A stretch of 33,282 bases of DNA from a virus (IMGVR_UViG_3300045988_114316:1-33282), one strand, 5' to 3'; positions 1 through 33,282 are shown, counted from the first letter of the stretch. Notes: generated by a model not told the origin, from the sequence alone. Numbers and translations: made by a program.

Positions 1-125
1 GATACTGGTCAGCGGCAACCAACACCGGAGACCGGTCAGCGGCAACCAACACCGGAGACCGGTCAGCGGCAACCAACACCGGATACCGGTCAGCGGCAAC
101 CAACACCGGATACCGGTCAGCGGCG
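1..125. repeat. Tandem 27-bp coding repeats, about 4.6 units, unit accggagaccggtcagcggcaaccaac encoding TGDRSAATN or TGYRSAATN
   Basis: Read directly. The same unit recurs at 33127-33282. Bases 1-32 are identical to 33251-33282. Confidence 0.9.
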
Positions 126-350
126 ATCGTTACTGGCGATGAATCCATCGCTATAGCAACAGGAATATACGGAAAAGCAAAAGGCAGTATAGGTTGTTAT
201 TTGGTGATTGCAGAGTGGAAAATGACAAATAGTGAATGGCACATCGTAGACGTGAAATCTACGAAAGTAGACGGAGTGAAAATCAAAGCAGATATATTTT
301 ACCGGTTAGTCGATGGGAAATTCGTTGAAGTTGAAGGAGAAGAAAAATGA
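1..350 (+). CDS. 3' part of the repeat-containing protein. It is 5'-partial at the window edge. If the contig is circular it continues the CDS that starts at 32806.
   Basis: Frame 3 is open from the window edge to TGA 348-350, translating YWSAATNTGDRSAATNTG...IVTGDESIAIATGIYGKAKGS...VEGEEK*. The stop overlaps the next start as ATGA. Confidence 0.7.
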   Translation, partial: YWSAATNTGDRSAATNTGDRSAATNTGYRSAATNTGYRSAAIVTGDESIAIATGIYGKAKGSIGCYLVIAEWKMTNSEWHIVDVKSTKVDGVKIKADIFYRLVDGKFVEVEGEEK

Positions 351-1261
351 GATGTGCAAAATGTGGGAAAGAGATTCATAAGGTGCTATTAAATGTATTC
401 AACTTTGATGGTTTAGACGATTTTGTTGAAGGAGACATAGGAGAGATTGAGTGCTGTGATGCTGTTTACATTTCAACGTATAGAAATTGGACAGGATATG
501 AATTGTCAGAAGAAGAACAAAGAGAAACGATCTTATGTCCGCATTGTGAGCAATTTCCATTTAAATCTGATGAAGTAAACGTTTTTGACAAAATTGAAAT
601 TCAGTGCTTTAAAGGAGAAGAAGAAATGGAAAATCCATTTAGACCAAAACAGGAAATTACAGTCGGCGGAGTTAAATTCACGATCATTCAGACCGCCGAA
701 AGCTGGGTGAAGTGCATTGCTTCGGAGTGTATCGGAAACGGCGCTTTTGCCGCGAAGAATCGAAATAATTTCGCCGAGTCCGATATTCGCGAGTTCTTGA
801 ACGGCGAATTCCTGCAAAAGCTGATCGAGGCGGGCGCACCTGAAGCAATGTTCGAGTATTTCAACATAGACTTGACCGCCGACGACGGCTTGAAGGACTA
901 CGGCGGCGATCGCGTCCGCGTCGGGCTTATCACGTGCGACGAATACAGGCTTCTTCGCGGCAACATTCCGGGTCTTACGGGCACTTGGTGGTGGACAGCT
1001 ACACCGGACAGTTCGAAAAACAATTTCGTCCGCAACGTCTATTCCGACGGCACGCTGAACAGCAACAATGCTTCCTTCGGGAACATCGGCGTTCGCCCGA
1101 TTTGCGTTCTGAAATCGGAAATCTTGAAATCTTACCTTGACGGGGGCGAAAAGAAACGCGCCGAAGCTGTCGATATGATGAAACATATTGCGGCGGTGTG
1201 GAACATCAAACCGGAAGAGATATTTATTCCAGAAATCGAAAAAGGTGAAAGCATTGTTTGA
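347..1261 (+). CDS. Hypothetical protein: N-terminal CxxC...CxxC zinc-ribbon-like region plus a C-terminal DUF6273-like domain (TWWWTATPDS...GVRPICVL motif)
   Basis: 304-aa ORF with RBS GAAGGAGAAG. The C-terminal motifs WWW..SP and GVRP match the DUF6273 family as I recall it. The 3' half, about 690-1130, is markedly GC-rich. Confidence 0.6.
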   Translation: MRCAKCGKEIHKVLLNVFNFDGLDDFVEGDIGEIECCDAVYISTYRNWTGYELSEEEQRETILCPHCEQFPFKSDEVNVFDKIEIQCFKGEEEMENPFRPKQEITVGGVKFTIIQTAESWVKCIASECIGNGAFAAKNRNNFAESDIREFLNGEFLQKLIEAGAPEAMFEYFNIDLTADDGLKDYGGDRVRVGLITCDEYRLLRGNIPGLTGTWWWTATPDSSKNNFVRNVYSDGTLNSNNASFGNIGVRPICVLKSEILKSYLDGGEKKRAEAVDMMKHIAAVWNIKPEEIFIPEIEKGESIV

Positions 1262-1345
1262 ATTGGAGGGAGAAGAAAATAAAACCGAAAAGGTGACAAA
1301 GGAGACTGTTGAAAATGAATAGAGTACCTTTATCTCCGAAGAAAG

Positions 1346-1540
1346 ATGAATTATGCTATTGTACTGCTTATTCCTGCTCGAACAGATACGACCTATTTTC
1401 ACGATTACATATACGGGAAAGCAGAAATTCGCTTCATTCGTGGACGGCTTCGCTTCATAGACGAAGAAGGAAACACCAGTGGTCCCGCGCCTTTTCCTTC
1501 TATGATTGTAATTTATAACAGGAGTAAACAGAACCAATAA
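1346..1540 (+). pseudogene. C-terminal remnant of a phage Dam-type N6-adenine DNA methyltransferase (PF05869-like: PARTDT..FHDY...AEIRFIRGRL.F...APFPS.IVIY)
   Basis: The 64-aa ORF matches only the C-terminal ~55 aa of Dam-family methylases. An in-frame stop lies 9 codons upstream. No N-terminal catalytic half is visible in any frame. Confidence 0.5.
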
Positions 1541-1553
1541 AAGGAGAATAAAG

Positions 1554-1778
1554 ATGAAAGGTATAGATTTTAGCTATGGTACATGGTGTGATAGTCTGGA
1601 AAAACAGGCCAACGAACAAGGGTATACGTTGGAATGCGCAGATTTGTATGAATCTTTAAGAAAAAGTATAGGTTTGTTATTATTCCAACGAATTGTAACA
1701 GATAAACAAGCTGACATGATGTTTGAAAAATTACATAAAAAAGTTGTAAAGTCTTTAAAACTATTGGAGGAAAAGTAA
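1554..1778 (+). CDS. hypothetical protein
   Basis: 74-aa ORF with RBS AAAAGGAGAA; coupled to the next gene by a TAATG overlap. Confidence 0.5.
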   Translation: MKGIDFSYGTWCDSLEKQANEQGYTLECADLYESLRKSIGLLLFQRIVTDKQADMMFEKLHKKVVKSLKLLEEK

Positions 1779-3144: not shown

Positions 3145-3945
3145 ATGAAGGTTATTCAGGAAACGTGCATAGCAGGAAGAACCATAGATCGAACGATAAA
3201 AATCACATCAGGAAACCATCGGTCGAAGCGTTCACCTAAAATAAACATCACACCAGAAAAAGTGCAAAAGAATAACGATCGCATCGCCGTAAAAAAATTA
3301 ATGCGATTGCTGAATGCAAATTTCACCGGTGGAGATTTACATATCGTGCTGACATACAAAGATGCGCCAGATCAGCTGCAGGCGAAAAAAGACCGTGAAA
3401 ATTTTTTAAAGGCTCTGCGGCGGAAGTTGAAAAAAAACGGAAAAGATCTGAAGTACATAGCCGTAACAGAATATAAGCACACCAGAATCCACCACCATAT
3501 CATTATTGGCGATTGTGACATTGCGTTAATTGAGGAAACCTGGAAAAAAGGATTTGTCAAATATTCGGTGTTAGATAACACGGGAAACTATGCTGATCTG
3601 GCCGCGTATCTGATCAAAGAAACGACGAAAACGATTCGGGAAGAAGGCAGCGTACAGAAAAAACGCTATTCTCGTAGCGCAAATCTAATTACTCCGATCG
3701 TCACAAAGCGGTATGTCGATGAATCGAAACTATGGGAAGATCCGGAGCCGATCAAAGGCTATTATATTGATCAAGACCACTGCAGGCGGTATGAGCACCC
3801 AGTAACCGGACTGGAACATTTGGAATACATCATGGTGGCAATAGACGAACCGCGAAAGATAAAACGATGGCCAGGGCAAAAGATAAGCGACAGCGAATAC
3901 TATAAAACGACATATGAGGAGGAACAAGAAAGCCTATGGATATAG
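3145..3945 (+). CDS. Rolling-circle replication initiator, HUH endonuclease superfamily (Rep_1/pC194-like motifs)
   Basis: Motif 1-like HIVLTYKD, HUH motif RIHHHIIIG, and catalytic Tyr motif-like ADLAAYLIKE in the canonical order. Confidence 0.6.
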   Translation: MKVIQETCIAGRTIDRTIKITSGNHRSKRSPKINITPEKVQKNNDRIAVKKLMRLLNANFTGGDLHIVLTYKDAPDQLQAKKDRENFLKALRRKLKKNGKDLKYIAVTEYKHTRIHHHIIIGDCDIALIEETWKKGFVKYSVLDNTGNYADLAAYLIKETTKTIREEGSVQKKRYSRSANLITPIVTKRYVDESKLWEDPEPIKGYYIDQDHCRRYEHPVTGLEHLEYIMVAIDEPRKIKRWPGQKISDSEYYKTTYEEEQESLWI

Positions 3946-3976: not shown

Positions 3977-4438
3977 GTGGAACCGAAAGAATTTCTGAGC
4001 CAGTACCGGAGGGCAGTAACGGATATAGAGAATCTGGAGACCGAAGCGGAAGAACTGGAGAACATGGCGATGGGAATCACGGTAAGTACAGAAGGTGATC
4101 GCGTACAAACATCGGGGAAAAAAGATCGAATGGCCGAACTGGCCGCAAAAGCCGCGGACATTCGAATAGACATCATGAGAAAAAGAACAGAAGCCCTGGA
4201 AGCAATGCACAGGGTCAGCAGACTTATCGCCGGAATGGAAAACAACCGATACAGAAAACTATTACACATGCGGTACATAAAGGGCGCTACTTGGGAAGAG
4301 ATCGCTGTGAACATGCATTATTCGATCAAGCACATATATAAACTGCACGGCTGGGCACTTCGGGAAATCCGCAGCGAGTTGAAAGAGGAGACTAAATGCG
4401 ACAAAAAGAGAGCGTATAATGATAGTGTGGACGAATGA
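3977..4438 (+). CDS. Phage late-gene transcriptional activator, sigma-70 region-4-like (ArpU/RinA-type)
   Basis: GTG start with RBS AAGGAGG. C-terminal YIKGATWEEIAVNMHYSIKHIYKLHGWALREI is a sigma region-4-like HTH. It sits immediately upstream of HNH and terminase, the usual position for RinA/ArpU-type activators. Confidence 0.55.
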   Translation: MEPKEFLSQYRRAVTDIENLETEAEELENMAMGITVSTEGDRVQTSGKKDRMAELAAKAADIRIDIMRKRTEALEAMHRVSRLIAGMENNRYRKLLHMRYIKGATWEEIAVNMHYSIKHIYKLHGWALREIRSELKEETKCDKKRAYNDSVDE

Positions 4439-4544: not shown

Positions 4545-4859
4545 ATGGCGAAACAGTTTGCAAAAAAATTCTATCACTCTGCAAAATGGAGGGCGGCGAG
4601 GAGTGCATACATTGACCGGCGCATCATGATCGATGGGGGTATGTGCGAAGTATGCCGCAAAAGACCGGGCTACATCGTGCACCATATCAAGAACCTCACG
4701 GAAGAAAACATCATTGATCCGGAAATAAGTCTCAACGAGGAAAACTTTCGGTTCGAGTGCAAGGCATGCCACGACCGGGAAGAAGGACACTTCATAAACG
4801 ATAAACGGACGTCGTGTATATTCGATGAAGAGGGGCAGCCGATACCAAAGAGTGAATAA
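4545..4859 (+). CDS. HNH endonuclease (terminase-associated)
   Basis: Motifs CEVC...HHIK...N....C..CH. Located directly upstream of the terS/terL pair. Confidence 0.85.
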   Translation: MAKQFAKKFYHSAKWRAARSAYIDRRIMIDGGMCEVCRKRPGYIVHHIKNLTEENIIDPEISLNEENFRFECKACHDREEGHFINDKRTSCIFDEEGQPIPKSE

Positions 4860-4960
4860 ATATTCATTAATCCCCCCTATTATACAAATTGGCGTCGACT
4901 ATCCTACACCGCATGCCGGACCACATTTATCACCGATGACGTGCGCAGGGGGAGGGGGTA

Positions 4961-5015
4961 CATATTTATAACTATGCAAAATAGAAAGGGAGCATATTTA
5001 TAACTATGCAAAATA
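4961..5015 (+). repeat. Perfect 23-bp direct repeat CATATTTATAACTATGCAAAATA x2 (4961-4983 and 4993-5015). The second copy contains the terS start codon.
   Basis: Read directly. The first copy creates a 9-codon decoy ORF (MQNRKGAYL) whose first three codons match those of terS. Confidence 0.85.
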
Positions 5016-5368
5016 AACCAGAAAAAACAAAAGATGAATTGATTTTGGCGACGTATCGAAAAATGCGTCGTTTTTTTAAAAATTTGGACAAAGATCGCAT
5101 GGAAATTGCTGACAGGCTATGCAAAAAAGCGGCGTTTATGGACGTAACCTTAAACGAGCTGCAGGAGAAGATCACCGAAGAAGGCGCAGTGATTGAAGGC
5201 GTAAACGGAAACGGATTTAAAGTGAAAATGGATAATCCAGCGATACGCAGCTATAATACCATGTTTAAAAATTACTCCGCGGCAATGAAGCAGCTAATCG
5301 AATTACTGCCAGAAACGGGCCAGTACAGCGACGAATTCATGACATTCGTTATGGGTAGAAAAAAATGA
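5006..5368 (+). CDS. terS: Terminase small subunit, P27 family
   Basis: 120 aa. Sits between HNH and terL. Terminase_4-like sequence (...VNGNGFKVKMDNPAIRSYNTMFKNY...). ATGA overlap with terL. Confidence 0.8.
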   Translation: MQNKPEKTKDELILATYRKMRRFFKNLDKDRMEIADRLCKKAAFMDVTLNELQEKITEEGAVIEGVNGNGFKVKMDNPAIRSYNTMFKNYSAAMKQLIELLPETGQYSDEFMTFVMGRKK

Positions 5369-7035
5369 TCGAGATGGAACAATATTTTACCGCAGTTGCC
5401 GACGGGGAAATCTGGTCATGCGAAAAGATGAAGAGGATCGCAGACAGGATTCTTGAGGATTATGCCTGCCCGGGCGAATATCATTTTGACGCGGAGCTGG
5501 CCAGCCGGCACATTGAGTTTATCGAACGATTCTGTAAGGTCCCGGCAGGAGACGTCGGGGCACCGTTGAGACTGGAACTATTCCAAAAGGCAAGACTGCA
5601 AACCATATTCGGTTTCGTCGATGATAACGACCTCCGGCAGTACAACGAAGTCATGATCGTAGAAGGCCGGAAAAACGGAAAAACAACGGAATGCGCCGCC
5701 GTCGAGCTGGATCTATTGATGAACGACGGAGAAGGCGCGCCAGAAATCTATAATATCGCCACAAAATATGAACAGGCGATGAAGGGTTTCACGGCAGCAA
5801 ATAATATGCGCGTCCAATCGAAAGAGATCAGTCAGCATCTACGAAAGAGAGCATCAGATCTTTACTGCCATTACAACATGGGGACCATAAAAGCGATGGC
5901 AAGTAACGTAAAAAGCCTGGACTCTTTAGACGCACACGGAGTGATCATTGACGAACTGGCGGCAATTACTAACAGAGATATCTATGACCTGATGAAACAA
6001 TCAATGGGAGCGAGAAAACAACCGCTCCTTTTTTGTATTACGACAAATGGATTCGTGCGGCATGGGATTTTTGATGCGCAGTATGAATACGCCTACAAAG
6101 TTTTGACCGGGGAAGTGAAGAATAAGCGATTCTTGCCGTTCATTTACGAATTGGACGACGTAAATGAGATGTGGGATCGGAAAAACTGGATCAAAGCCAA
6201 CCCGGGACTGGGAACGATCAAAAAAGAGTCGTTTCTGGAAGAGATGGTACAAAAGGCCAAAGATGATCCGCCGTTTAAACCGACGGTCATTGTGAAAGAT
6301 TTCAATATCCCGCAGACGAATGAAGCGGCGTGGTTACGCTATGAAGAACTGAATAATGAGGAGAAATTCGATATCAGATTCGATTACGCAATAGGTGGAT
6401 TCGATGCGGCGGACAGCATCGACTTGAATGCCGCCAAGGTGATTTGTATGCGGCCAGATGATCCGCATATTTACGTGAAATCCATGTATTGGATCCCAGA
6501 AAGCGTGCTGCAGCAGGCCGAAAAAATGGGAAACCGTCAGGAACGTGACCGGGTGCCATATTCATTGTGGATAAATCAGGGATATATGCGAACCTGTCCA
6601 GGACAGAAATGTGACAAACGCATTTTTTTAGAATGGTTTAAGGAACTTCGTGATGAAGAGGATTTATATATCCTGTACATCGGGTACGACCCGTGGCACA
6701 TTGATGATACGCTGCTACGGGAGTTCAAAACAGAATTCGGAGAAAGCAGCATGATCCCAATTCGGCAGGGGGTGAAAACCTTGTCTACGCCAATGAAGGA
6801 TCTGAAAGCAGAATTTCGAGAAAAGAACATCGTCTATAACAACAACCCCATAGACAAGTGGTGCCTGATCAATACTGCGGTGAAAACCGACGTCAATGGC
6901 AACATTCAACCCGTAAAAACAGAGGATCCAACGCAGCGAATCGACGGAACTATCGCCCTAATTTGCGCGTATAAAGTGTTGCAGGATTATAAAGACAGAT
7001 ACATCAACTTAAACGAACCGGAAGAAGGTGAGTAA
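5365..7035 (+). CDS. terL: Terminase large subunit (Terminase_1 family)
   Basis: 556 aa with a Walker A-like EGRKNGKTTE and a C-terminal nuclease domain; followed by the portal gene. Confidence 0.9.
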   Translation: MIEMEQYFTAVADGEIWSCEKMKRIADRILEDYACPGEYHFDAELASRHIEFIERFCKVPAGDVGAPLRLELFQKARLQTIFGFVDDNDLRQYNEVMIVEGRKNGKTTECAAVELDLLMNDGEGAPEIYNIATKYEQAMKGFTAANNMRVQSKEISQHLRKRASDLYCHYNMGTIKAMASNVKSLDSLDAHGVIIDELAAITNRDIYDLMKQSMGARKQPLLFCITTNGFVRHGIFDAQYEYAYKVLTGEVKNKRFLPFIYELDDVNEMWDRKNWIKANPGLGTIKKESFLEEMVQKAKDDPPFKPTVIVKDFNIPQTNEAAWLRYEELNNEEKFDIRFDYAIGGFDAADSIDLNAAKVICMRPDDPHIYVKSMYWIPESVLQQAEKMGNRQERDRVPYSLWINQGYMRTCPGQKCDKRIFLEWFKELRDEEDLYILYIGYDPWHIDDTLLREFKTEFGESSMIPIRQGVKTLSTPMKDLKAEFREKNIVYNNNPIDKWCLINTAVKTDVNGNIQPVKTEDPTQRIDGTIALICAYKVLQDYKDRYINLNEPEEGE

Positions 7036-8290
7036 GATCGGATTATTCGAAAAAATATTTTCAAAGTACGCAGTAAATAAAGCTACAGCGAGCTATTTTA
7101 ACACGCTAACTGCCTACCAACCGCAGTTTACCACGTTTAACGGTGGAATCTATGAAGCGCTGCTTTGCAGGGCATCAATTCACACATTCGCAAATCACTG
7201 TAGCAAACTGAAAGTGGAGGTCATGGGCAATGATAAGGGACTGAAAAACATTTTGTCCGTAAGGCCAAACCCCTGGCAGACCACATCGCAGTTTTTATAT
7301 CGGCTGGCCACAATTTTAGAAAACGATACGACAGCGTTTATCGTACCGATTTTAGATTCTGCAGACATGCGGATTCGCGGTTTATTTCCAGTCAAACCGG
7401 CGAATGTGACGGTAAAAGAGTACCGTGGTGAGGAATATATTCAATTCCTGTTTCCGACCGGGAAAACGGCAATGGTAGAGTCGAAATATGTCGGCACATT
7501 AACAAAGTTTCAATACAACGACGATCTGTTCGGATCGGGAAATAAACCGATGTATCCAACGATCCGTATGATCGACACGCAGGACCAGGGCATCGTTGAA
7601 GGCGTAAAAAGCAATGCCGCGATTCGATTTATGGCAACGTTAGCGGGAGTATTCAAAAAGAAGGACATTGAAGAGGCACGGAAGACGTTTGCTGAAACGA
7701 ATTTGCAGAACAACGACACGGGCGTAATGATGTTCGACGAAAAATTCCGCGACGTCAAACAGATTACATCAAATCCGGCATACATCGACGATAAACAAAT
7801 GCAGCAGATCAAGAACAATGTCTATAGCTATTTCGGAACAAATGAGGCGGTTTTAATGAACACATTCGACGAAGGGCAATGGAACGCCTACTACGAAGGG
7901 AAAGTGGAGCCGTTTGCTATTCAGGTATCCGAAGTCATTACGACAATGCTATACACACTGAGAGAGTTGGCATATGGAAACAAAGTGGTGTTAAGTTCGA
8001 ACCGGCTGGAATATGCGTCAAATGAAACAAAAATCAACGTGGTTACGCAGTTATTTGACCGGGGAATGATGACGAAAAACCAAGGTCTGGAAGTGTTTAA
8101 CATGCCACCGGTAGAAGACGGAGATAAATTCTACATCCGGAAAGAATACGCAGAACTGGACAAGCTGAATGAAGCGCAAGGGTTAGAAGCGCAAAATCCA
8201 TATCAGGAAGGAGAAAAAAATGCCAAAAAGTCAGGAGAGGGAGTACCGAACAATGCCGGTGATCCTTCCAGTGAAGGAGAAACGAATTGA
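7028..8290 (+). CDS. Portal protein, HK97 family
   Basis: GTG start giving MSKIGLFEKIF (HK97 portal N-terminal signature); 420 aa; lies between terL and the prohead protease. Confidence 0.8.
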   Translation: MSKIGLFEKIFSKYAVNKATASYFNTLTAYQPQFTTFNGGIYEALLCRASIHTFANHCSKLKVEVMGNDKGLKNILSVRPNPWQTTSQFLYRLATILENDTTAFIVPILDSADMRIRGLFPVKPANVTVKEYRGEEYIQFLFPTGKTAMVESKYVGTLTKFQYNDDLFGSGNKPMYPTIRMIDTQDQGIVEGVKSNAAIRFMATLAGVFKKKDIEEARKTFAETNLQNNDTGVMMFDEKFRDVKQITSNPAYIDDKQMQQIKNNVYSYFGTNEAVLMNTFDEGQWNAYYEGKVEPFAIQVSEVITTMLYTLRELAYGNKVVLSSNRLEYASNETKINVVTQLFDRGMMTKNQGLEVFNMPPVEDGDKFYIRKEYAELDKLNEAQGLEAQNPYQEGEKNAKKSGEGVPNNAGDPSSEGETN

Positions 8291-8825
8291 TTCAGATTAC
8301 TACGTGGAGGGTTATGCCACGACATTCAATGAACCATATGTATTATGGGAATATGAAGGCCGAAAATACAAAGAGGTGATTGATCGAAATGCGCTTGCCG
8401 GCGCAGATATGAGCGATGTGCTGTTCCAATACAATCACATGGGAAAAGTATTCGCCCGAACAAAAATGAAACAAGGAAAGAAACCGACCCTGATCCTGGA
8501 AGCCCAGGAAAAGGGTCTTTTTATTGCCTGCGATTTAAGCCTGACAGAAGAAGCCCGAAAGCTATGGGAGGAAATCAATAGTGGACTGATCTATCAGATG
8601 TCATGGGGATTCACCGTTGAAGAGGATAGCTACAACCGTGACACCAGAACAAGAACCATCAAAAAAATCAAGAAGGTCTACGACGTTAGTGCGGTGGATT
8701 TACCGGCTAACCCGTCAACCGATATATCGTCTCGAAGCTGGATCGACGGAGTGATCGAAACGGAACGGCAGGAGTTCGCCGCGAGACAAAGGCAAATCAT
8801 CAAAATTTTAACGGAGGTAAGGTAA
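8220..8825 (+). CDS. Prohead protease, HK97 family (Peptidase_S78)
   Basis: Motifs GYATTFN, LFQYNHMGKVFART, SWGF and DVSAVDLPANPST. The start is ambiguous (ATG 8220 has RBS AAGGAG; alternative ATG 8253). It overlaps the portal 3' end. Confidence 0.8.
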   Translation: MPKSQEREYRTMPVILPVKEKRIDSDYYVEGYATTFNEPYVLWEYEGRKYKEVIDRNALAGADMSDVLFQYNHMGKVFARTKMKQGKKPTLILEAQEKGLFIACDLSLTEEARKLWEEINSGLIYQMSWGFTVEEDSYNRDTRTRTIKKIKKVYDVSAVDLPANPSTDISSRSWIDGVIETERQEFAARQRQIIKILTEVR

Positions 8826-22645: not shown

Positions 22646-22664
22646 CGTGGAAAGGAGAAAAACA

Positions 22665-22925
22665 ATGAAAGTAAACTGGAAGGTAAGACTAAAAAATAAG
22701 ACGTGGCTGCTGGCGTTTTTGGGAACAATTATCACATTTATCTACCAGATTTTAGGCATGATCGGTATTGTTCCACCGATTTCTGAGGACAATGTAACGC
22801 AGATCATCGGCATTCTGGTTAATCTGTTGGTAGCAATAGGCGTTGTGCAGGATCCGACTACCGCCGGTGTAGCCGACAGCCAGCAGGCTTTAGAATACAG
22901 CGAACCACGAAAGGAAAACGAGTAA
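22665..22925 (+). CDS. Holin, phage phi LC3 family (Phage_holin_1)
   Basis: MKVNWKVRLKN...two TM segments...VQDPTTAGVADSQQAL matches the phiLC3 holin family; RBS AAAGGAG. Confidence 0.8.
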   Translation: MKVNWKVRLKNKTWLLAFLGTIITFIYQILGMIGIVPPISEDNVTQIIGILVNLLVAIGVVQDPTTAGVADSQQALEYSEPRKENE

Positions 22926-24072: not shown

Positions 24073-24507
24073 ATGGGTAAATATAGAGCTATGGATATTG
24101 CAAAATACGTGATTTCAAAATGCACAGAGGATAAAAAACCAATAACAAATTTACAGCTGCAAAAAATTCTGTTCTTTATTCAACGGGATTATTTGAAGGA
24201 AAATTCTTGTCCGCTTTTTTCAGATGATGTAGAAGCGTGGCAATTTGGCCCAGTAGTCGCCGATGTCTATTATGCCTTTTGCGGTATGGGATCGATGAAA
24301 ATTCTTGGTGAATATACTCCATCAACGAGCATTGAAAAAAATGATAGATGTTTTATAGATAAAATCGTCGAAGCAAAAAGAGAAAAATATCCGTGGGATC
24401 TCGTAAGAGAAAGTCATAAAAAAGACGGAGCTTGGGACACCATTTTTCAAAATGGAGAAGGAAATCATTGCATCATACCGATCAAACTAATAGCAGAAAG
24501 AGGATAA
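24073..24507 (+). CDS. Panacea-domain (DUF4065, SocA/PanA-like) protein
   Basis: ITNLQLQKILFFIQRDYLKENSCPLFSDDVEAWQFGPVVADVYYAF matches the DUF4065 core (...KLLY..q...l...g.plf.d.ieAw.yGPVv..vY). Confidence 0.65.
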   Translation: MGKYRAMDIAKYVISKCTEDKKPITNLQLQKILFFIQRDYLKENSCPLFSDDVEAWQFGPVVADVYYAFCGMGSMKILGEYTPSTSIEKNDRCFIDKIVEAKREKYPWDLVRESHKKDGAWDTIFQNGEGNHCIIPIKLIAERG

Positions 24508-24508
24508 C

Positions 24509-25309
24509 GTGTTTGAAAGCAGTGTAGTTAATGAAGATGAAAAAAGGCAGGCGCTAATTGAGCTTTTAAAGGAACTATCAATTCGTCAGGATATTCTTGA
24601 AAGTGGGGAAGAAAAGGAATATTTTCTTGCTAAGTTTCAAGAAGTATATAGCTATCCGAGTAGTGATGAACTGTATCGGCATTACTACTCGGATATTTTT
24701 GCCGTTATTTCGCAAATCGATCAAAAATTAATTGATGGAGATAAAGAGACTCTGTCACAAAATATGGAGTTGTTTAAAACATACTGTGAATTGCAATTTC
24801 AGGAGCAGAAAATATCCGATAACTTTTTAAAGGCTATTCGTAAATTATATGACCATGTAAATTTAGATGTTGCGAGATTAAACTACTTTTCCAAAATCAT
24901 GGAAACGTCAGAACAGAATTTAAAAGATATTGCTCCTAAGATAGATTCTTTACGTACTGAGCAAAAAGAAATACAGGCAAATATAGATGATGCTAAAAAG
25001 ATTGGAAGAGACTATATCACTATTTTAGGAATTTTTGCATCGATTGTATTGGCATTTACAGGAGGAATTGCTTTTTCTACTTCTGTATTAGAAAATATTA
25101 ATGCAGTTAGTCCAGTAAGACTTGCAGCAGTAATTATTGGACTGGCATTTGTTTTAATTAATGTCGTATATATACTAACTCGTTTTATCCAGGAAATAAA
25201 TAAAAGGAAAGAAGAAAAAATTAAAACACCGCTCTTTATTGTTGCTATTGATATAGTTTTGATCATAGCATCATTAATCATTTTTATTTACTATCTATAT
25301 ACAATTTAA
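24509..25309 (+). CDS. Membrane protein with an N-terminal helical cytoplasmic domain (~175 aa) and three C-terminal TM helices; candidate toxin/effector partner of the Panacea protein
   Basis: GTG start 1 nt after the upstream stop with RBS GAAAGAGGA; TM segments ITILGIFASIVLAFTGGIAF, LAAVIIGLAFVLINVVYIL and LFIVAIDIVLIIASLIIFIYYLY. Confidence 0.6.
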   Translation: MFESSVVNEDEKRQALIELLKELSIRQDILESGEEKEYFLAKFQEVYSYPSSDELYRHYYSDIFAVISQIDQKLIDGDKETLSQNMELFKTYCELQFQEQKISDNFLKAIRKLYDHVNLDVARLNYFSKIMETSEQNLKDIAPKIDSLRTEQKEIQANIDDAKKIGRDYITILGIFASIVLAFTGGIAFSTSVLENINAVSPVRLAAVIIGLAFVLINVVYILTRFIQEINKRKEEKIKTPLFIVAIDIVLIIASLIIFIYYLYTI

Positions 25310-25708: not shown

Positions 25709-26080
25709 ATGGAAAACAGGATTAAAGAAGCACGTAAATCAGCAGGTATTACACAAGAAGAAATGTCGAAACTTTTTAGGATTCCGAAAAGGACAATAGG
25801 AAACTGGGAAACTGGGGAACGGAAACCAGCGAAATATGTTGAAGATCTGATTGTTGAAAAAATAGAAAATATGAAAAGCGAGGAAAAAAACATGACGATA
25901 ATGAAAGATGATTTGATCTTAAGAAAAGAAGGAAAGTACTGGACACTATATCTTGGCGACTACTCCCTCAGCTGTGGGGACTTAGAAGATATGACGGAGA
26001 GCATAGAGGAAGTAGGGAAGAGGTTAGAAAACGGGGAAGCTGCTGAAGATATCATAAAAGAATTTAACAATTTCAGATAA
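25709..26080 (+). CDS. XRE-family HTH transcriptional regulator with a C-terminal domain of unknown function
   Basis: IKEARKSAGITQEEMSKLFRIPKRTIGNWETGERKP is a Cro/C1-type HTH; RBS GGAGGAAG; internal ATG of the track ORF. Confidence 0.7.
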   Translation: MENRIKEARKSAGITQEEMSKLFRIPKRTIGNWETGERKPAKYVEDLIVEKIENMKSEEKNMTIMKDDLILRKEGKYWTLYLGDYSLSCGDLEDMTESIEEVGKRLENGEAAEDIIKEFNNFR

Positions 26081-26241: not shown

Positions 26242-26382
26242 GTAATAATGAAACAAGAAAGCGTATATAAACACATTCCATAAATAAATGATGATCAGAA
26301 AAAGTGGCACGTTTTTGGCACGGTATGACACGATTTTAGGCTAATATTTGGAAATAAATGTAATAAAAATAGACATTCACAG

Positions 26383-26438
26383 AATCACTGCACGCATTGA
26401 AATTTGAACGTTTTTCAATGCGTGCAGTGATTTTTTAA
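26383..26438 (+). terminator. Perfect 20-bp-stem hairpin (AATCACTGCACGCATTGAAA / TTTCAATGCGTGCAGTGATT) + T6, just beyond the integrase 3' end
   Basis: Read directly. Confidence 0.6.
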
Positions 26439-26491
26439 AAGATATGTATGAGAAGGTGCAGGTGGCGATATAATGTTGAAATTTCAGTGAT

Positions 26492-27547
26492 TTAAACAAT
26501 GTTGACACGCGTATGGCACGGATCAGAAACATATTCATTCATTTTTTCTCTGGCAGATTCCATAGATTTTTCCGTGTGGTGCGTATAAATTTGCGCGGTA
26601 ACTTTTATGGACGAGTGACCCATCAAAACCTTAGCCACATTGATCGGGACACCGGCGTCCTGGAGATCCGTGCAAAACGTATGCCTTAAACAATATGGAA
26701 CCAGATCTGGAGATACTGAGAAAGGGTGCTCTTCCTCCATGCTTTTTTTGAATGACTTCCAGCTTTTTTGAAATGTACTATTCGTGAATCTTTTACCTCT
26801 GGGTGTCGTAAAAACCGGCTCAAATGGTTTCAGATCGAGTTTTCTCAATTCCTTTGCGTAAACATCTACTATAGGTACTTTCCTGACACCTGCAGAGGTT
26901 TTTGGAGCCTTTTTATTTCCGTTGTAATCGATGTTAGAGCGTACATAGACCAGATTATTCTTTAAATCTATGTCACGGCCTTCGAGGGCGGCGACCTCCA
27001 TAGTTCTCAAACCACAAAAAAGCATCATTTTGAGGTACATTCCCAACGGGTGGTGATCTGATACCTCTAATATGATTCTTCGCTCAGAATCGCTTATAGA
27101 GCGCCTTGAAATGTGCTCACTGACCATTGGGCGTTTAATGTTTTTTACAGGATTGGCACGAATAAGATCGTTGTCTGCAGCGGTTTCAAAAAAGGATTTA
27201 ACCACTGCCAAATATTTGCTATATGTGATCTGAGACAACCCGCTCAACGAGTTTGCCCAGATCTGCACGTTTTTCTGCGCGATCTTGTTGAGGGGGAAAT
27301 TTCCATACATACTGCAAAATGAATTTAAGATGCAGTGAATATTTTTGTTCCATTTTCCGTTTATAGCGGGCCTGAATGTTTCAGGCCATTCTTTTGCCCA
27401 TTGCGAACAGGTTATATTTTTTCGGATAATAAGAACATTTTCGTCAATATCGCGGATTTTCAAAGCCTTTTTTACTTCAAAGTCCTTTTCGTCTTTTGCC
27501 CTAATGAAATACCGCTGTCTCTCATACGTAAAAGATTTCCTTATCAT
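26492..27547 (-). CDS. int: Tyrosine-type integrase (site-specific recombinase)
   Basis: C-terminal LRHTFCTDL...LMGHSSIKVTAQIYTH (R, HxxR and Y catalytic motifs). The start is set at the second ATG (MIRKSF), which is preceded by AAGGAGGA; the first ATG at 27571 has no RBS. Confidence 0.9.
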   Translation of the reverse strand: MIRKSFTYERQRYFIRAKDEKDFEVKKALKIRDIDENVLIIRKNITCSQWAKEWPETFRPAINGKWNKNIHCILNSFCSMYGNFPLNKIAQKNVQIWANSLSGLSQITYSKYLAVVKSFFETAADNDLIRANPVKNIKRPMVSEHISRRSISDSERRIILEVSDHHPLGMYLKMMLFCGLRTMEVAALEGRDIDLKNNLVYVRSNIDYNGNKKAPKTSAGVRKVPIVDVYAKELRKLDLKPFEPVFTTPRGKRFTNSTFQKSWKSFKKSMEEEHPFSVSPDLVPYCLRHTFCTDLQDAGVPINVAKVLMGHSSIKVTAQIYTHHTEKSMESAREKMNEYVSDPCHTRVNIV

Positions 27548-27582
27548 GATATCCTCCTTTCTGTCTCTCATTTTGTAAAATT

Positions 27583-27734: not shown

Positions 27735-28253
27735 TTAATAACCTACTTGAGATACTCCATATTCAGCTTGATCTTGTGTGAATCCCTCGTATAATAGTTG
27801 TTCGATCAATCCTTCACGGGAAAATGAAGAGGTATCAAGGTATTCTTGTGCTTTTTTAGCCGCTTGTTCTTTCCAGTTAGCCCCGCAGTTGTCAACTGCG
27901 TAAGTCGCTTCTTCTGTTGTATAGCCTTCATATTCTAACTGATCGATTAAACCGGTTCTCGAAAATGACATTAAACTCAAATAACTTTGCGCTTGATCTA
28001 ATGCGTTCTGTTCTCCTATGGTAGCATCATTTTCATTATCAGAAGCTTTCGTGTTGTTTTGAGTCTCAGTGTTTTCCTCAGTAACTATTTGATCATTATC
28101 TTTTGGTGCAGTTGTTGTTTCGTCATCGCCTCCAGACATTGCACCAATTATTCCGATAACGAGAATAACGACAATGACAATAAACCACCATTTCTTATAA
28201 AACGGTTTTTTCACTGGGGGGGTAACGTTACTTGAGTTCATTTCTTTCTTCAT
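27735..28253 (-). CDS. Ltp-family superinfection-exclusion protein (two Ltp repeats, N-terminal membrane anchor)
   Basis: Two copies of the A...A..YL....FSR.GLI.QL.YEGFT..EA.YAVD motif. The start is set at the second ATG (MKKEMNSS), which is preceded by AAAGGAG. Confidence 0.8.
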   Translation of the reverse strand: MKKEMNSSNVTPPVKKPFYKKWWFIVIVVILVIGIIGAMSGGDDETTTAPKDNDQIVTEENTETQNNTKASDNENDATIGEQNALDQAQSYLSLMSFSRTGLIDQLEYEGYTTEEATYAVDNCGANWKEQAAKKAQEYLDTSSFSREGLIEQLLYEGFTQDQAEYGVSQVGY

Positions 28254-28428
28254 TTTTCTTTCTCCTTTTTTTCTTTTTATTAAAACGGTCAAGCCGAATT
28301 AATCTATATAAATATTGTTTTTGATAGAAAGATTTATTCGCAATAGCTTAAAAACACAAATGTTCGATAATGGTTATATTTTTAGCACCCCTCTCGAACG
28401 GACTCTCGAAGTATACAAAGAATTGCTA

Positions 28429-28503: not shown

Positions 28504-28605
28504 ATGGAACAATTAGACTCTATTTACAAACTGCTTCAGCATGCGTCAGAAAAACAATTAAAAATCATTTATGCGTTTATCCGGCAGCTGGTAGAGGGGT
28601 ATTAA
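28504..28605 (+). CDS. Small ORF (33 aa, MEQLDSIYKLLQHASEKQLKIIYAFIRQLVEGY), convergent with the repressor gene and overlapping its 3' end
   Basis: RBS GAGGTG 6 nt upstream; it is the last 33 codons of track ORF 28315-28605. Confidence 0.35.
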   Translation: MEQLDSIYKLLQHASEKQLKIIYAFIRQLVEGY

Positions 28606-28982
28606 CCCCTCTTTTTTATGATCTCAATCGCCTGCTCTAAAATCTCCCATTCGTCGGAAGAAAGCGCGACAAGCATTTCGATGAACCTTCTTTTGAACGA
28701 CTCTTCTTCTTCGTTCAAAATCTTGGCAACGAATTTTGCAATCTCTTCCTCTTTGGATAACTGTTCAAACATTTCGCCCTGGCCATATTTTAGCCAATCC
28801 ATACTGACGTTATATTTGCTGCAGATATTGATAAAAATAGGCTCTTTTAGCTCCATTCGTTTCAATCTATCCAATTCAATGTTATTTATCTCGTCCGGAG
28901 TCGCACCAACTTCTTGCGCAAACTCCCGCCTTGATTTTTTAAAATGATCTCTGATTTGCCTGACTCTTGTTCCGATAGTCAA
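28602..28982 (-). CDS. CI-like XRE-family repressor
   Basis: TTG start with RBS AGGAG; N-terminal HTH IGTRVRQIRDHFKKSRREFAQEVGATPDEINNIE; divergent from the early operon. Confidence 0.8.
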   Translation of the reverse strand: MTIGTRVRQIRDHFKKSRREFAQEVGATPDEINNIELDRLKRMELKEPIFINICSKYNVSMDWLKYGQGEMFEQLSKEEEIAKFVAKILNEEEESFKRRFIEMLVALSSDEWEILEQAIEIIKKRG

Positions 28983-31308: not shown

Positions 31309-31552
31309 TAGACGCTGTTACATCACTGACGGCAGAGGAATCATGATCGCAACGGAAAAAGGTGAGGTAATTATACCGATAGAAGAAGCCACACGATTTG
31401 TAAAGGAATTCGCGGAGATGATCCATAAAGCAGCGAAAATATTAAACGAACTGCCACTGGAACAAAAAAATGAAGTTGCAAGAGTAAAAAAGATGTCCTA
31501 TGGAACGTTACAGAAAATCATATATGACGCGATGGACATTACGGTGGGATAA
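31223..31552 (+). CDS. hypothetical protein (start uncertain; alternative ATG at 31286)
   Basis: 109-aa ORF that overlaps the upstream gene by up to 86 nt. Confidence 0.4.
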   Translation: MIKQQKINLKDLKEEAEKNDCMVRNAIYDRRCYITDGRGIMIATEKGEVIIPIEEATRFVKEFAEMIHKAAKILNELPLEQKNEVARVKKMSYGTLQKIIYDAMDITVG

Positions 31553-31553
31553 T

Positions 31554-32333
31554 ATGGAATTCACGCATCTAAGTCTATTTAGTGGGATTGGCGGATTGGA
31601 TTTAGCGGCTGAATGGGCAGGTTTTAAAACAGTTGGGCAATGTGAATCCGCAGATTATCCGGCAAGAGTATTGACTAAAAATTGGCCGAATGTGCCAAAG
31701 TGGGGAGATATAAGAACGCTGACAAAGGAGACATTTCATGAACGAACAGGAAGAAAAACAGTTAACGTTATTTCCGGAGGTTTTCCATGCCAACCGTTTA
31801 GCATCGCCGGGAAGCGAGGCGGCCAGACAGATGACCGTTATCTCTGGCCAGAAATGCTTAGAGTTATCAAAGAACTGCAACCAGATTGGGTTGTTGGAGA
31901 AAATGTTGCTGGGTTCATCTCGATGGGTCTCGACACAGCGTTATCTGATCTGGAAAGCGCAGGTTACGCCGCAAGGGCGTTTGTACTTCCGGCTTGTGCC
32001 GTTGGTGCCTGCCATCGAAGGGACAGAGTGGCCATTGTGGCCAACGCCAACAGCCAGAGACACACGGGGATTGAACGACTATGCGAAAACAATGAAAAAA
32101 ATACAGAAAGGGGAACGGGGGCATTTAGGACAGTTACCGAATTATTTGATGGTACTGACGGGAAAACGTGGGCGACTAAATCCGCGTTTTTACGAAAAAC
32201 TGATGGGATTCCCCACCGGTTGGACAGAATTAGATGTTTAGGTAATGCCGTTGTACCACAGCAATTTTATCCGATTTTCGAATCAATAATGGAGATAGAG
32301 CGAAGGACGAATTTCAGTAAATACAAGGGATAA
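31554..32333 (+). CDS. DNA (cytosine-5)-methyltransferase. The full motif set is distributed over two reading frames.
   Basis: Frame 0 carries motif I FSGIGG, IV GGFPCQPFS, VI VVGENV, VIII GACHRRDRVAIVA and X LGNAVVPQQFYPI. A pre-X motif GRLNPRFYEKLMGFPTGWT lies in the +1 frame (ORF 31738-32241). Confidence 0.75.
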   Translation: MEFTHLSLFSGIGGLDLAAEWAGFKTVGQCESADYPARVLTKNWPNVPKWGDIRTLTKETFHERTGRKTVNVISGGFPCQPFSIAGKRGGQTDDRYLWPEMLRVIKELQPDWVVGENVAGFISMGLDTALSDLESAGYAARAFVLPACAVGACHRRDRVAIVANANSQRHTGIERLCENNEKNTERGTGAFRTVTELFDGTDGKTWATKSAFLRKTDGIPHRLDRIRCLGNAVVPQQFYPIFESIMEIERRTNFSKYKG

Positions 32334-32407
32334 AGACTATGTTAAATCGACATGGAAGACCCCAGAAGACGTAATGAAATGGTGGATAGGCGAAACAGGA
32401 GGGAAAA

Positions 32408-32809
32408 ATGATTGATGAAAAGAAGCTGATCGAAAAAATAAAGTACCTGTTATTCAACTCGGAAATATTAAGCCCGCGATGGTTTGCGATAAATGAAGTG
32501 TTTGAAAAAATAAAACGTCAGCCCAAAACCGGCGAGTGGACACCATGCAGTGAGAGAATGCCGGAAGACCTTACACCTGTTAACATCACATGGACGAATC
32601 ACTTTCCGCCGGACTACTATGCACACATAAAAGACGTGCATTTTACAAATACTGGCGTTTTATGCAAAGGTAAATGGTTTTGGTGGTCGGCCTATGCAAA
32701 GGATACGCTCGCAGAATATGGTAACGATGAGGTAGACGAAATGGCCGATGAGATAGAAGTTCTTGCGTGGCAGCCGTTACCTGAGCCGTGGAAAGGAGAA
32801 GAAAAATGA
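32408..32809 (+). CDS. DUF551-like phage protein
   Basis: ...GEWTPCSERMPEDLTPV...WQPLPEPWKGE pattern typical of DUF551. Confidence 0.65.
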   Translation: MIDEKKLIEKIKYLLFNSEILSPRWFAINEVFEKIKRQPKTGEWTPCSERMPEDLTPVNITWTNHFPPDYYAHIKDVHFTNTGVLCKGKWFWWSAYAKDTLAEYGNDEVDEMADEIEVLAWQPLPEPWKGEEK

Positions 32810-33282
32810 AAGCATATAAAGGCTTTGATGAAAATTTAAAATGCAGAGATTTCCAGTACGAGATTGGAAAAGAATACGAAGAGACAAATGCAAAACTGTG
32901 TGAAACAGGTTTTCACGCATGCGAAAATCCTATAGACGTTTTTGGATACTATACACCAGCAAACAGCCGTTATTGTGAAGTAGAGCTGGAAGATGTAACT
33001 GATGAATCATCTGATGATAGCAAAAAATGCGGGAAAAGAATTCACATAAATGCAGAGATTGGAATAAAAGGGATTGTTGATGCGTTTATAAAATTCACAT
33101 TAGATCATATTCCGTCAGGAAATCATACGGCAACCAATACCGGAGACCGGTCAGCGGCAACCAACACCGGAGACCGGTCAGCGGCAACCAACACCGGATA
33201 CCGGTCAGCGGCAACCAATACCGGAGACCGGTCAGCGGCAACCAACACCGGATACTGGTCAGCGGCAACCAACACCGGAGAC
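32806..33282 (+). CDS. Repeat-containing protein, 5' part: conserved N-terminal domain (KGFDENLKCRDFQYEIGKEYEE...CETGFHACENPIDVFGYY) followed by 9-aa tandem repeats SAATNTGDR. It runs off the window end.
   Basis: ATG 32806 overlaps the upstream stop (ATGA). The open frame continues to the window edge and is in phase with the fragment at 1-350 if the termini are joined. Confidence 0.7.
   Translation, partial: MKAYKGFDENLKCRDFQYEIGKEYEETNAKLCETGFHACENPIDVFGYYTPANSRYCEVELEDVTDESSDDSKKCGKRIHINAEIGIKGIVDAFIKFTLDHIPSGNHTATNTGDRSAATNTGDRSAATNTGYRSAATNTGDRSAATNTGYWSAATNTGD
33127..33282. repeat. Tandem 27-bp coding repeats (about 5.8 units)
   Basis: Read directly. Confidence 0.9.

What the first reader, a model, noticed from the sequence alone, without database searches (positions are those of the whole stretch)
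1..33282. Window termini overlap in phase: probably a complete circular (circularly permuted) phage genome of about 33.25 kb
Bases 1-32 equal bases 33251-33282 exactly. In both places they sit in the same codon phase of a 27-nt tandem-repeat coding region. The CDS starting at 32806 and the fragment ending at 350 therefore join into one ORF. Attachment-site candidates, the integrase and all modules are internal to the window. This layout fits an excised or episomal phage, or a metagenomic viral contig assembled with a terminal overlap. It does not fit a chromosomal prophage with host flanks.
Basis: seen in the sequence. Interest (0 to 1): 0.55.

Follow-up and report, generated by a model that had tools for sequence, protein, structure and literature searches.

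The report
Complete circular temperate gut phage genome
The window is an ordinary complete genome of an uncultivated temperate phage of gut Emergencia/Anaerovoracaceae bacteria. It assembled as a circle and was cut open inside a repetitive gene, so the matching ends come from assembly and are not a biological feature.

Summary
Bases 1-32 equal 33251-33282 exactly. This is the only prefix=suffix length, and the 32-mer occurs nowhere else in the window. Joining the ends gives a 264-aa ORF: a DUF7666 domain, ten 9-aa repeats and a C-terminal domain. The listed homologues have this same architecture.

Independent data confirm the join. ENA contig k119_36056 is the same phage at 99.99% identity. 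It runs straight through the junction with an intact gene, but with 5 repeat units instead of 10.

I recovered all four attachment sites. The 15-bp core GGTGCAGGTGGCGAT (26455-26469) is intact and internal in the window. In lysogens the two arms lie at opposite prophage ends, inside the host flp pilin gene next to tadC. The window is therefore the excised, circular form and has no host flanks.

There are two corrections. First, the packaging module (HNH, TerS, TerL) matches proven 3'-cos phages phiCD506 and phiCD481-1, so virion DNA is probably not circularly permuted. Second, the array contains an 80-nt internal exact repeat, so its unit number, and hence the 33,250-bp size, is uncertain in steps of 27 nt.

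The main finding is ordinary. Two side findings are the hypervariable repeat protein and the integration into flp.

The parts
1..32 (+). Terminal direct repeat, left copy (identical to 33251-33282). It is an assembly overlap, and one copy must be removed to give a circle of 33,250 bp.
33251..33282 (+). Terminal direct repeat, right copy.
33116..33282 (+). 5' part of the 27-nt tandem array (units A,B,B,C',B,D plus 5 nt) inside the DUF7666 gene.
1..135 (+). 3' part of the same array (units D,B,B,C,E). After joining there are 10 units. The longest internal exact repeat is 80 nt.
32806..33282 (+). DUF7666 gene, N-terminal part (Pfam PF24703, residues 1-92, E 1e-32) and the first repeats.
33..350 (+). 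DUF7666 gene, remaining repeats and the conserved C-terminal domain, up to the TGA at 348-350.
32793..32809 (+). 17-nt direct repeat AAGGAGAAGAAAAATGA (second copy at 334-350). The two copies bracket the DUF7666 ORF exactly and probably mark the cassette boundary.
   Evidence: relatives lacking the gene
347..1261 (+). DUF6273 protein gene, the first gene after the join.
32408..32809 (+). DUF551-like gene, the last gene before the join.
31554..32333 (+). Cytosine-C5 DNA methyltransferase.
3145..3945 (+). Replication initiator (REP_ORF2-G2P; PHROG rolling-circle/replication initiation).
3977..4438 (+). DUF1492 late transcriptional regulator.
4545..4859 (+). HNH endonuclease of the packaging module.
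4860..5005 (+). HNH-terS intergenic gap, the predicted location of cos by synteny with phiCD506. This is an inference and the sequence similarity is only weak.
5006..5368 (+). Small terminase candidate.
5365..7035 (+). Large terminase (TerL_ATPase and TerL_nuclease domains).
7028..8290 (+). Portal protein.
8253..8825 (+). S78 prohead protease.
8825..9967 (+). HK97-fold major capsid protein.
11458..12510 (+). Tail sheath (contractile tail).
12521..12955 (+). Tail tube.
13491..15131 (+). Tape measure protein.
17302..18351 (+). Baseplate J protein. Gp48-like protein and fibre genes follow, up to about 22360.
22647..22925 (+). Holin.
22925..23914 (+). GH25 endolysin.
24073..25309 (+). SocA/Panacea-domain gene plus a 266-aa partner (accessory pair, possibly toxin-antitoxin or defence).
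25709..26080 (+). HTH protein, the last gene before attP.
26376..26439 (+). 27-nt inverted repeat (terminator-like hairpin) in the left arm of attP.
26455..26469 (+). attP core GGTGCAGGTGGCGAT, identical in attB, attL and attR.
26492..27571 (-). Tyrosine integrase.
27735..28292 (-). Superinfection-exclusion-like protein.
28602..28982 (-). HTH repressor candidate.

Best explanation
The window is the complete genome of a temperate, contractile-tailed phage of human-gut Emergencia/Anaerovoracaceae. The circular map is about 33,250 bp, plus or minus multiples of 27 nt. It was assembled as a circle from excised, replicating or cos-joined DNA.

The assembler opened the circle inside a 27-nt tandem array of an accessory DUF7666 gene, because that array is the only place in the genome where short k-mers repeat. 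This left a 32-nt overlap at the two ends.

Inferred life cycle:
- The tyrosine integrase recombines the 15-bp attP core (26455-26469) with the identical core inside the host flp pilin gene. The integrated state is shown by attL and attR contigs.
- After excision the circle replicates using the Rep initiator (inferred).
- Concatemers are cut at a cos site predicted between the HNH and terS genes, giving linear virion DNA with unique 3' cohesive ends (inferred from homology and synteny with phiCD506 and phiCD481-1).
For: - Exact and unique 32-nt overlap.
- The joined ORF is a full-length DUF7666 protein. Of the 120 best homologues, 119 cover 98-100% of it in a single chain, and the 28 that were aligned show the same N-domain, repeats and C-domain.
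- ENA contig ERZ27250559:k119_36056 matches window 15709-33239 with 2 mismatches and no gaps. It then continues into window 13-1422 through an intact 219-aa gene.
- That contig's length fits a circle: 33,250 - 135 + 119 = 33,234. This implies a k=119 overlap at window 1304-1422, a different break point.
- Relatives L008, L028 and the prophage L015 are also continuous across the window ends.
- All modules are present: HNH, TerS, TerL, portal, protease, capsid, sheath, tube, tape measure, baseplate, holin, endolysin, integrase, repressor, Rep and methylase.
- The size equals that of the nearest characterised phages, 32.8-33.6 kb.
- The att tetrad is complete. attL contigs match the window from exactly 26455. 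attR contigs match up to exactly 26469. Empty attB sites carry the same 15 bp.
- Logan contig ERR636401_7739 is 100% identical to the window and runs through attP without a branch, but stops in the repeat array.
Against: - No reads were available, so the physical form of the template is not distinguished. It could be a free circle, a concatemer, ligated cos ends or a tandem prophage.
- The overlap lies in an array with an 80-nt internal exact repeat, so the unit count of 10 is not secure.
- No intact 264-aa allele appeared among the homologues found in the protein collection.
- A 32-nt overlap does not equal a k large enough (81 or more) to resolve the array, so how the overlap arose in the source pipeline is unknown.
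- The first 14.4 kb of k119_36056 could not be fetched. Its circularity therefore rests on the length arithmetic.
- The cos assignment rests on 55-56% TerL identity plus synteny and was not measured.
Confidence: 0.88

Rival explanations
1. The virion DNA really is terminally redundant and circularly permuted (headful, pac packaging), and the overlap reflects that.
For: Only the existence of a terminal overlap. Headful phages also assemble as circles.
Against: The overlap sits in the middle of a gene that is intact in another assembly and exactly where short k-mers repeat. An HNH endonuclease lies directly upstream of terS and terL, as in phiCD506. The closest characterised TerL relatives, phiCD481-1 and phiCD506, are 3'-cos phages with 13-nt overhangs, confirmed by experiment (PMC5557969).
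Confidence: 0.08
2. The circle is an assembly artefact. The two ends belong to two different repeat-bearing genes or loci that merely share the 27-nt repeat, so the true molecule is linear or larger.
For: Both ends lie in a tandem repeat, where false joins are common. Any in-register match keeps the reading frame automatically.
Against: The overlap contains the single variant unit (GATACTGG) of the array. An independent contig crosses the region with one intact gene and identical flanks. Homologues always have the N-domain, repeats and C-domain in one protein. Relatives and prophages are collinear across the ends. There is only one DUF7666 N-domain and one C-domain in the window.
Confidence: 0.03
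3. The window is a chromosomal prophage (or a piece of one) whose host flanks were trimmed, or a tandem double lysogen whose internal junction mimics a circle.
For: Close relatives are integrated in Emergencia/Anaerovoracaceae genomes. A tandem dimer would also yield an attP-like junction and a circular graph.
Against: A single prophage would end at attL and attR. Here both arms are contiguous around one core at 26455-26469, and the ends fall 6.8 kb away from it in an early gene. The k=31 Logan contig from the likely source run passes attP with no branch to host DNA. A tandem dimer cannot be excluded without reads, but it would not change the genome sequence or its completeness.
Confidence: 0.06

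Closest known systems
Clostridioides phages phiCD506 and phiCD481-1 (Sherbrookevirus; small 3'-cos myoviruses)
   Same: Genome size is 33.3 and 32.8 kb. They have contractile tails. The late gene order is the same: DUF1492 regulator, HNH, small terminase, TerL, portal, protease, capsid, sheath, tube, tape measure, baseplate, holin, endolysin. TerL is 55-56% identical over 99% of its length.
   Different: There is no nucleotide-level match. phiCD506 carries ParA-like, helicase and polymerase genes in its early region. The window instead has a tyrosine integrase with a defined attP, a Rep-type initiator and the DUF7666, DUF6273 and Panacea cargo. The host family also differs (Anaerovoracaceae rather than Clostridioides).
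Paenibacillus phage PG1
   Same: It has the best TerL match in the GenBank phage collection (63.8% identity, 99% coverage) and a similar size of 37.6 kb.
   Different: Only the terminase was compared. There is no DNA similarity and the host is unrelated.
Metagenomic 'DTR' complete viral genomes (contigs with a direct terminal repeat of at least 20 bp, as used by CheckV/IMG-VR; from my own knowledge)
   Same: The window has an exact terminal direct repeat, viral hallmark genes, no host genes and the size expected from relatives.
   Different: The repeat lies inside a tandem array with near-copies elsewhere. That is the class of DTR such tools flag as potentially repetitive. Completeness here rests on independent contigs and the att tetrad.
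HK97-type packaging modules with an HNH endonuclease next to the terminase (Kala et al. 2014, from my own knowledge; PhageTerm classes in PMC5557969)
   Same: The HNH gene lies immediately upstream of terS and terL, followed by portal, S78 protease and HK97-fold capsid.
   Different: The ends were not determined for this phage. Similarity to the phiCD506 cos sequence is weak.
Prophages that integrate inside a host coding gene (for example Listeria A118-like phages in comK, staphylococcal phi13 in hlb; from my own knowledge)
   Same: A tyrosine integrase acts on a short core (15 bp) inside an ORF, here the 44-aa Flp pilin gene of a tad locus. attL truncates the gene after 15 codons.
   Different: The target gene is different. 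attR keeps an in-frame ORF with a phage-supplied ATG but without the prepilin leader. No functional data exist.
Pfam DUF7666 (PF24703) proteins
   Same: The N-terminal domain scores 112.9 bits against a cut-off of 27. The homologues examined share the N-T-G-x-x-S-A-A-T repeats and the C-terminal domain.
   Different: The family has no known function and no paper mentions it. The window allele's unit number is uncertain.

Membership tests
Complete circular viral genome from assembly (DTR contig) | Exact direct terminal repeat of at least 20 bp | tested here: met
   32 nt, exact, the only prefix=suffix length
Complete circular viral genome from assembly (DTR contig) | The terminal repeat is not merely a repetitive or low-complexity element | tested here: inconclusive
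   The exact 32-mer is unique to the ends, but it is one unit of a 27-nt tandem array with near-copies. The array has an 80-nt internal exact repeat.
Complete circular viral genome from assembly (DTR contig) | Continuity across the join shown by independent sequence | tested here: met
   k119_36056 crosses it at 99.9-99.99% identity. L008, L028 and L015 are collinear across it.
Complete circular viral genome from assembly (DTR contig) | Full set of phage modules, no host genes, size as in relatives | tested here: met
   relatives are 32.8-33.6 kb
Complete circular viral genome from assembly (DTR contig) | Reads or read pairs spanning the join | not testable with these tools
   No read data were available.
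Temperate phage with tyrosine-integrase site-specific integration | Tyrosine integrase gene | tested here: met
   PF00589 hit and PHROG integrase, E 2e-55
Temperate phage with tyrosine-integrase site-specific integration | attP, attB, attL and attB-derived attR share one core, with arms exchanged as expected | tested here: met
   The 15-bp core GGTGCAGGTGGCGAT is present in the window (26455-26469), in 2 empty sites aligned directly, in 3 attL contigs and in 5 attR contigs.
Temperate phage with tyrosine-integrase site-specific integration | Repressor or immunity region next to the integrase | tested here: met
   HTH repressor candidate at 28602-28982(-) and a sie-like gene at 27735-28292(-). 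Function was not tested.
HK97-like 3'-cos packaging (as in phiCD506 and phiCD481-1) | HNH endonuclease adjacent to terS and terL, with an HK97-type head module | tested here: met
HK97-like 3'-cos packaging (as in phiCD506 and phiCD481-1) | TerL homologous to terminases of phages with experimentally shown 3' cos ends | tested here: met
   55.5-55.7% identity over 99% of the length. Ends of those phages are reported in PMC5557969.
HK97-like 3'-cos packaging (as in phiCD506 and phiCD481-1) | Defined cohesive termini in virion DNA | not testable with these tools
   Only a weak local similarity of window ~4905-4930 to the phiCD506 cos region.
Headful (pac) phage with circularly permuted, terminally redundant DNA | Distributed termini or a pac-type terminase | not testable with these tools
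   The nearest characterised terminases listed are from cos phages. No positive evidence for pac was found.
Pfam DUF7666 (PF24703) | Score above the Pfam gathering threshold | tested here: met
   112.9 bits against a threshold of 27, residues 1-92

The most novel reading that the evidence does not exclude
The assembly may break in the DUF7666 array for a biological reason as well as a technical one. The array could be a fast-evolving modular recognition surface.

- Two phage genomes that are 99.98% identical elsewhere differ by five whole units (5 versus 10).
- Family members carry 2-20 units.
- Within each 9-aa unit (N-T-G-x-x-S-A-A-T), seven positions are almost invariant and two adjacent ones vary (D/Y/N, then Q/R/Y/W/K/C).

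On this reading each unit contributes two specificity residues to a beta-solenoid whose length and surface are reshuffled by repeat recombination. That would be a phage accessory protein with a repeat code, aimed at a target that is still unknown.
Probability: 0.15. Interest if true: 0.55.

Novelty: new member of a known kind. Interest (0 to 1): 0.18.

Why it matters
The contig can be treated as a complete, correctly closed reference genome for an uncultivated Emergencia/Anaerovoracaceae phage. Its host, integration site and probable packaging mode are now assigned. The array length in the DUF7666 gene should be treated as unresolved.

This case also illustrates a general caution. A terminal overlap inside a tandem repeat is not proof of circularity by itself. 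Here circularity is established only because independent contigs and the attP/attB/attL/attR set agree.

Two by-products may merit follow-up. The first is integration into the flp pilin gene of a tad locus, which should abolish or alter Tad pili in lysogens. The second is a widespread, unstudied phage repeat protein with two hypervariable residues per unit.

Tried and rejected
- Start of k119_36056. I tried to fetch it to see its own 119-nt overlap directly. Look-ups from four window genes either did not list the contig or found nothing. Its circularity is therefore argued from length arithmetic only.
- GenBank phage collection. A megablast of window 1-25000 found nothing.
- IMG/VR. No exact match to attP, the left arm or the predicted attR, and only a distant HTH relative.
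- Logan contigs as cos evidence. Logan contigs of ERR636401 tile the window with an 11-nt overlap at 4899-4909, inside the predicted cos gap. I rejected this as evidence for physical ends because an identical 11-nt overlap occurs at 20959-20969, and other samples' contigs run through 4899-4909.
- Diversity-generating retroelement. I considered one as the source of the N/D/Y variation. No reverse transcriptase turned up among the genes annotated, and variation is limited to single-base changes. I did not pursue it, and not every small ORF was scanned.
- DUF7666 fold. The AlphaFold model has a confident N-domain (pLDDT about 90) and C-domain (about 80-89), but the repeats score only 52-59. Foldseek against the PDB gave nothing below E=1, only weak beta-helix/RTX-like hits. 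No fold assignment is made.
- RNA genes. No tRNA genes and no Rfam families were found in the window.
- Literature. Searches for DUF7666, ERR636401 and Emergencia prophages found nothing relevant.


Full report
**1. The observation**

Bases 1-32 and 33251-33282 are identical (GATACTGGTCAGCGGCAACCAACACCGGAGAC). 32 is the only length from 6 to 299 at which the prefix equals the suffix, and the 32-mer occurs nowhere else in the window. Both ends lie in a 27-nt tandem array (Tandem Repeats Finder: 7-124 and 33128-33282).

Written in register, the joined array has ten units: A,B,B,C',B,D,B,B,C,E. The overlap is unit D plus 5 nt. D is the only unit with the variant GATACTGG. The match is therefore more specific than a generic meeting of two arrays of the same repeat.

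Joining 32806..33282 to 33..350 gives a 795-nt ORF of 264 aa without stops. It adds nothing, however, because 27 is a multiple of 3 and any in-register overlap keeps the frame.

**2. Is the join real?**

Three independent lines say it is.

(a) Protein architecture. The joined protein has a Pfam DUF7666 domain at residues 1-92 (112.9 bits, cut-off 27). Of the 120 best homologues, 119 cover 98-100% of it in one chain. An alignment of 28 of them shows the same N-domain, a variable number of 9-aa repeats and the same C-terminal domain.

(b) An independent assembly. ENA contig ERZ27250559:k119_36056 (33,234 nt) is the same phage. It matches window 15709-33239 with 2 mismatches and no gaps. It then continues through an intact 219-aa DUF7666 gene into window 13-1422 with 1 mismatch. 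The flanking genes are the same: DUF551 (133 aa) upstream and DUF6273 (304 aa) downstream.

Its array is A,B,B,C,E, five units fewer. Over the 18.8 kb I could see, the coordinate offset is constant. The contig would therefore start at window 1304 and end at 1422, an overlap of 119 nt, which equals its assembler's k. Indeed 33,250 - 135 + 119 = 33,234, the contig's exact length. I read this as a second circular assembly of the same genome opened at another place. I could not fetch its first 14.4 kb, so this step is inference.

(c) Relatives. Relatives that lack DUF7666 (L008, L028) and an integrated prophage in an Emergencia MAG (L015) run from the methylase/DUF551 region into the genes at window 600-2800. 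They too are continuous across the window's ends.

**3. Why the contig ends there**

The joined array contains an 80-nt exact internal repeat. It is the only place in the genome where k-mers of 31 to 77 nt repeat, and k of 81 or more is needed for uniqueness.

Logan (k=31) contigs of run ERR636401 are 100% identical to the window over 942-4909, 4899-20969 and 20959-33157. The last one stops 15 nt into the first B unit of the array. The window thus probably comes from that sample, and the array is where short-read graphs break.

Two consequences follow. The unit number (10), and therefore the size of 33,250 bp, is uncertain in steps of 27 nt. No intact 264-aa allele appeared among the homologues retrieved from the 5.8-billion-protein collection. 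The 5-unit allele of k119_36056 is short enough (135 nt) to be nearly spanned by a single 119-mer, so I take the copy-number difference between samples as probably real.

**4. What the molecule is**

The gene content is that of a complete temperate myovirus.

| Module | Coordinates |
|---|---|
| Rep-type initiator | 3145-3945 |
| DUF1492 late regulator | 3977-4438 |
| HNH endonuclease | 4545-4859 |
| TerS | 5006-5368 |
| TerL | 5365-7035 |
| Portal, S78 protease, HK97-fold capsid, connectors | 7028 onward |
| Tail sheath | 11458-12510 |
| Tail tube | 12521-12955 |
| Tape measure | 13491-15131 |
| Baseplate J | 17302-18351 |
| Fibre genes | up to about 22360 |
| Holin | 22647-22925 |
| GH25 endolysin | 22925-23914 |
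| Panacea-domain pair | 24073-25309 |
| HTH gene | 25709-26080 |
| Integrase | 26492-27571 (-) |
| sie-like gene | 27735-28292 (-) |
| Repressor candidate | 28602-28982 (-) |
| Small early genes, C5 methylase, DUF551, DUF7666, DUF6273 | from ~29100, through the window ends, to 1261 |

There are no tRNA genes, no Rfam families and no host genes. G+C content is 43%.

The nearest phages in GenBank by TerL are Paenibacillus phage PG1 (63.8%) and the small Clostridioides difficile myoviruses phiCD481-1, phiCD506 and phiCDHM13 (about 55-56%; 32.8-33.6 kb). phiCD506 has the same late gene order. There is no nucleotide-level match to any GenBank phage.

**5. Attachment sites**

A search with the integrase found a 141-kb contig of an uncultured Emergencia MAG. 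It carries a related prophage whose similarity to the window stops at 26455, followed by tad pilus and riboflavin genes. A second junction contig breaks at the same base.

Using the host tadC-like protein and the gene downstream of flp as handles, I recovered the other site types:
- empty sites (ten loci by gene layout; the attB sequence was compared directly in L039 and L049),
- attL contigs (L015, L036, L040-L044),
- attR contigs (L050, L051, L054, L055, L057).

The four site types share one 15-bp core, GGTGCAGGTGGCGAT, which is window 26455-26469. attL contigs match the window from exactly 26455 rightwards, towards the integrase. attR contigs match it up to exactly 26469 from the left, that is the HTH gene and a 27-nt hairpin. 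One sample (ERZ15614034) has both junction contigs.

The window therefore holds an intact attP with both arms contiguous. In lysogens those arms are a genome length apart and abut host DNA. The window is the excised, circular arrangement and not a chromosomal prophage with flanks. The k=31 contig from the probable source run also passes attP without a branch. This suggests that free phage DNA dominated there.

**6. Packaging, and the word 'permuted'**

The HNH-terS-terL arrangement with an HK97-type head module is that of phiCD506. phiCD506 and phiCD481-1 were shown to have 13-nt 3' cohesive ends of the HK97 class by PhageTerm. Ligation-digestion experiments in the same laboratory gave packaging modes that were compared with those predictions (PMC5557969). 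In phiCD506 the cos site lies between the HNH gene and terS.

By analogy I predict cos in window 4860-5005. A weak local resemblance to the phiCD506 cos region exists around 4905-4930, but it is not significant. The virion DNA is thus probably linear with unique ends. The 'permutation' is only the arbitrary opening of a circular map. This step is inferred and was not measured.

**7. Rivals**

- Two separate repeat genes or a false join is contradicted by section 2.
- A trimmed prophage is contradicted by section 5.
- Headful, permuted DNA is unlikely by section 6.
- A tandem double lysogen or a concatemer as the physical template cannot be excluded without reads. Neither would change the genome sequence or its completeness.

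**8. Side observations**

(a) Integration splits the 44-aa Flp pilin gene of a tad locus. attL leaves 15 codons and then a stop. attR keeps an in-frame ORF in which a phage-supplied MYEK (MCEK in relatives) replaces the leader MLTNKKGMEM. The pilin is then cut off from its operon, sits behind a hairpin and lacks its leader. Lysogens probably lose or alter Tad pili.

(b) The DUF7666 ORF is bracketed exactly by a 17-nt direct repeat (32793-32809 and 334-350; none expected by chance). The gene is absent from several relatives, so it behaves as a cassette.

(c) Across 1,551 repeat units of 120 homologues the unit is N-T-G-x-x-S-A-A-T. Positions 2, 3 and 6 were fixed by the search pattern. Positions 1, 7, 8 and 9 are 93-99% conserved. 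Positions 4 (D/Y/N) and 5 (Q/R/Y/W/K/C) are hypervariable. There are 2-20 units per protein. The AlphaFold model is confident for the two end domains but not for the repeats (pLDDT 52-59). Foldseek finds no significant PDB match. No paper mentions the family.

**9. Verdict**

The object is a new member of a well-known kind, a complete metagenomic genome of a temperate myovirus. It is already present almost identically in other public assemblies. Interest in the finding itself is low. The flp integration site and the hypervariable DUF7666 repeat protein are the only parts that might repay further work.

Noticed in passing
window 26455-26469; loci L039/L049 (attB), L040-L044, L015, L036 (attL), L050, L051, L054, L055, L057 (attR): The phage integrates at a 15-bp core inside the 44-aa Flp pilin gene of the host tad locus. 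attL truncates flp after 15 codons. attR keeps an in-frame ORF with a phage-supplied start (MYEK or MCEK) but without the prepilin leader. Lysogeny probably abolishes or alters Tad pili.
   Followed up: yes
window 33116-33282 + 1-135; P0001-P0120: DUF7666 repeats follow N-T-G-x-x-S-A-A-T, with two adjacent hypervariable residues per 9-aa unit and 2-20 units per protein. Two genomes that are 99.98% identical elsewhere differ by 5 units. The family has no known function, no significant fold match and no literature.
   Followed up: partly
window 32793-32809 and 334-350: A 17-nt direct repeat AAGGAGAAGAAAAATGA brackets the DUF7666 ORF exactly (0 expected by chance). Relatives L008, L028 and L015 lack the gene, so it looks like a mobile cassette or moron.
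   Followed up: partly
window 4899-4909 and 20959-20969: Logan contigs of run ERR636401 tile the window at 100% identity with overlaps of exactly 11 nt at both boundaries, not the 30 nt expected for k=31. The first boundary lies in the predicted cos gap. The cause is unknown and probably technical.
   Followed up: partly
window 24073-25309: A SocA/Panacea-domain gene (144 aa) is followed by a 266-aa protein with a hydrophobic C-terminus, between the lysis genes and attP. This is probably a toxin-antitoxin or defence cargo pair. It is replaced by other genes in relatives (L017, L050, L054).
   Followed up: no
window 26249/26250; L017, L020, L021: Relatives share the window sequence up to 26249 and then carry a different integrase (357 aa, with a SAM_3 N-domain) and a different attP. 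This is a module swap of the integration cassette.
   Followed up: no
window 942; L005, L006, L010, L012, L014: Contigs from several samples and assemblers start at about window 905-942, inside the DUF6273 gene. This suggests a recurrent mosaic boundary or strain-variation break point there.
   Followed up: no
window 12957-13501: The tail assembly chaperone gene (12957-13349) is overlapped at its 3' end by ORF 13223-13501 in another reading frame, the usual arrangement for a programmed frameshift product.
   Followed up: no
P0004-P0120 contig lengths: Many DUF7666 homologues sit on contigs of about 77-84 kb. This suggests the gene is also common in a second, larger phage group.
   Followed up: no
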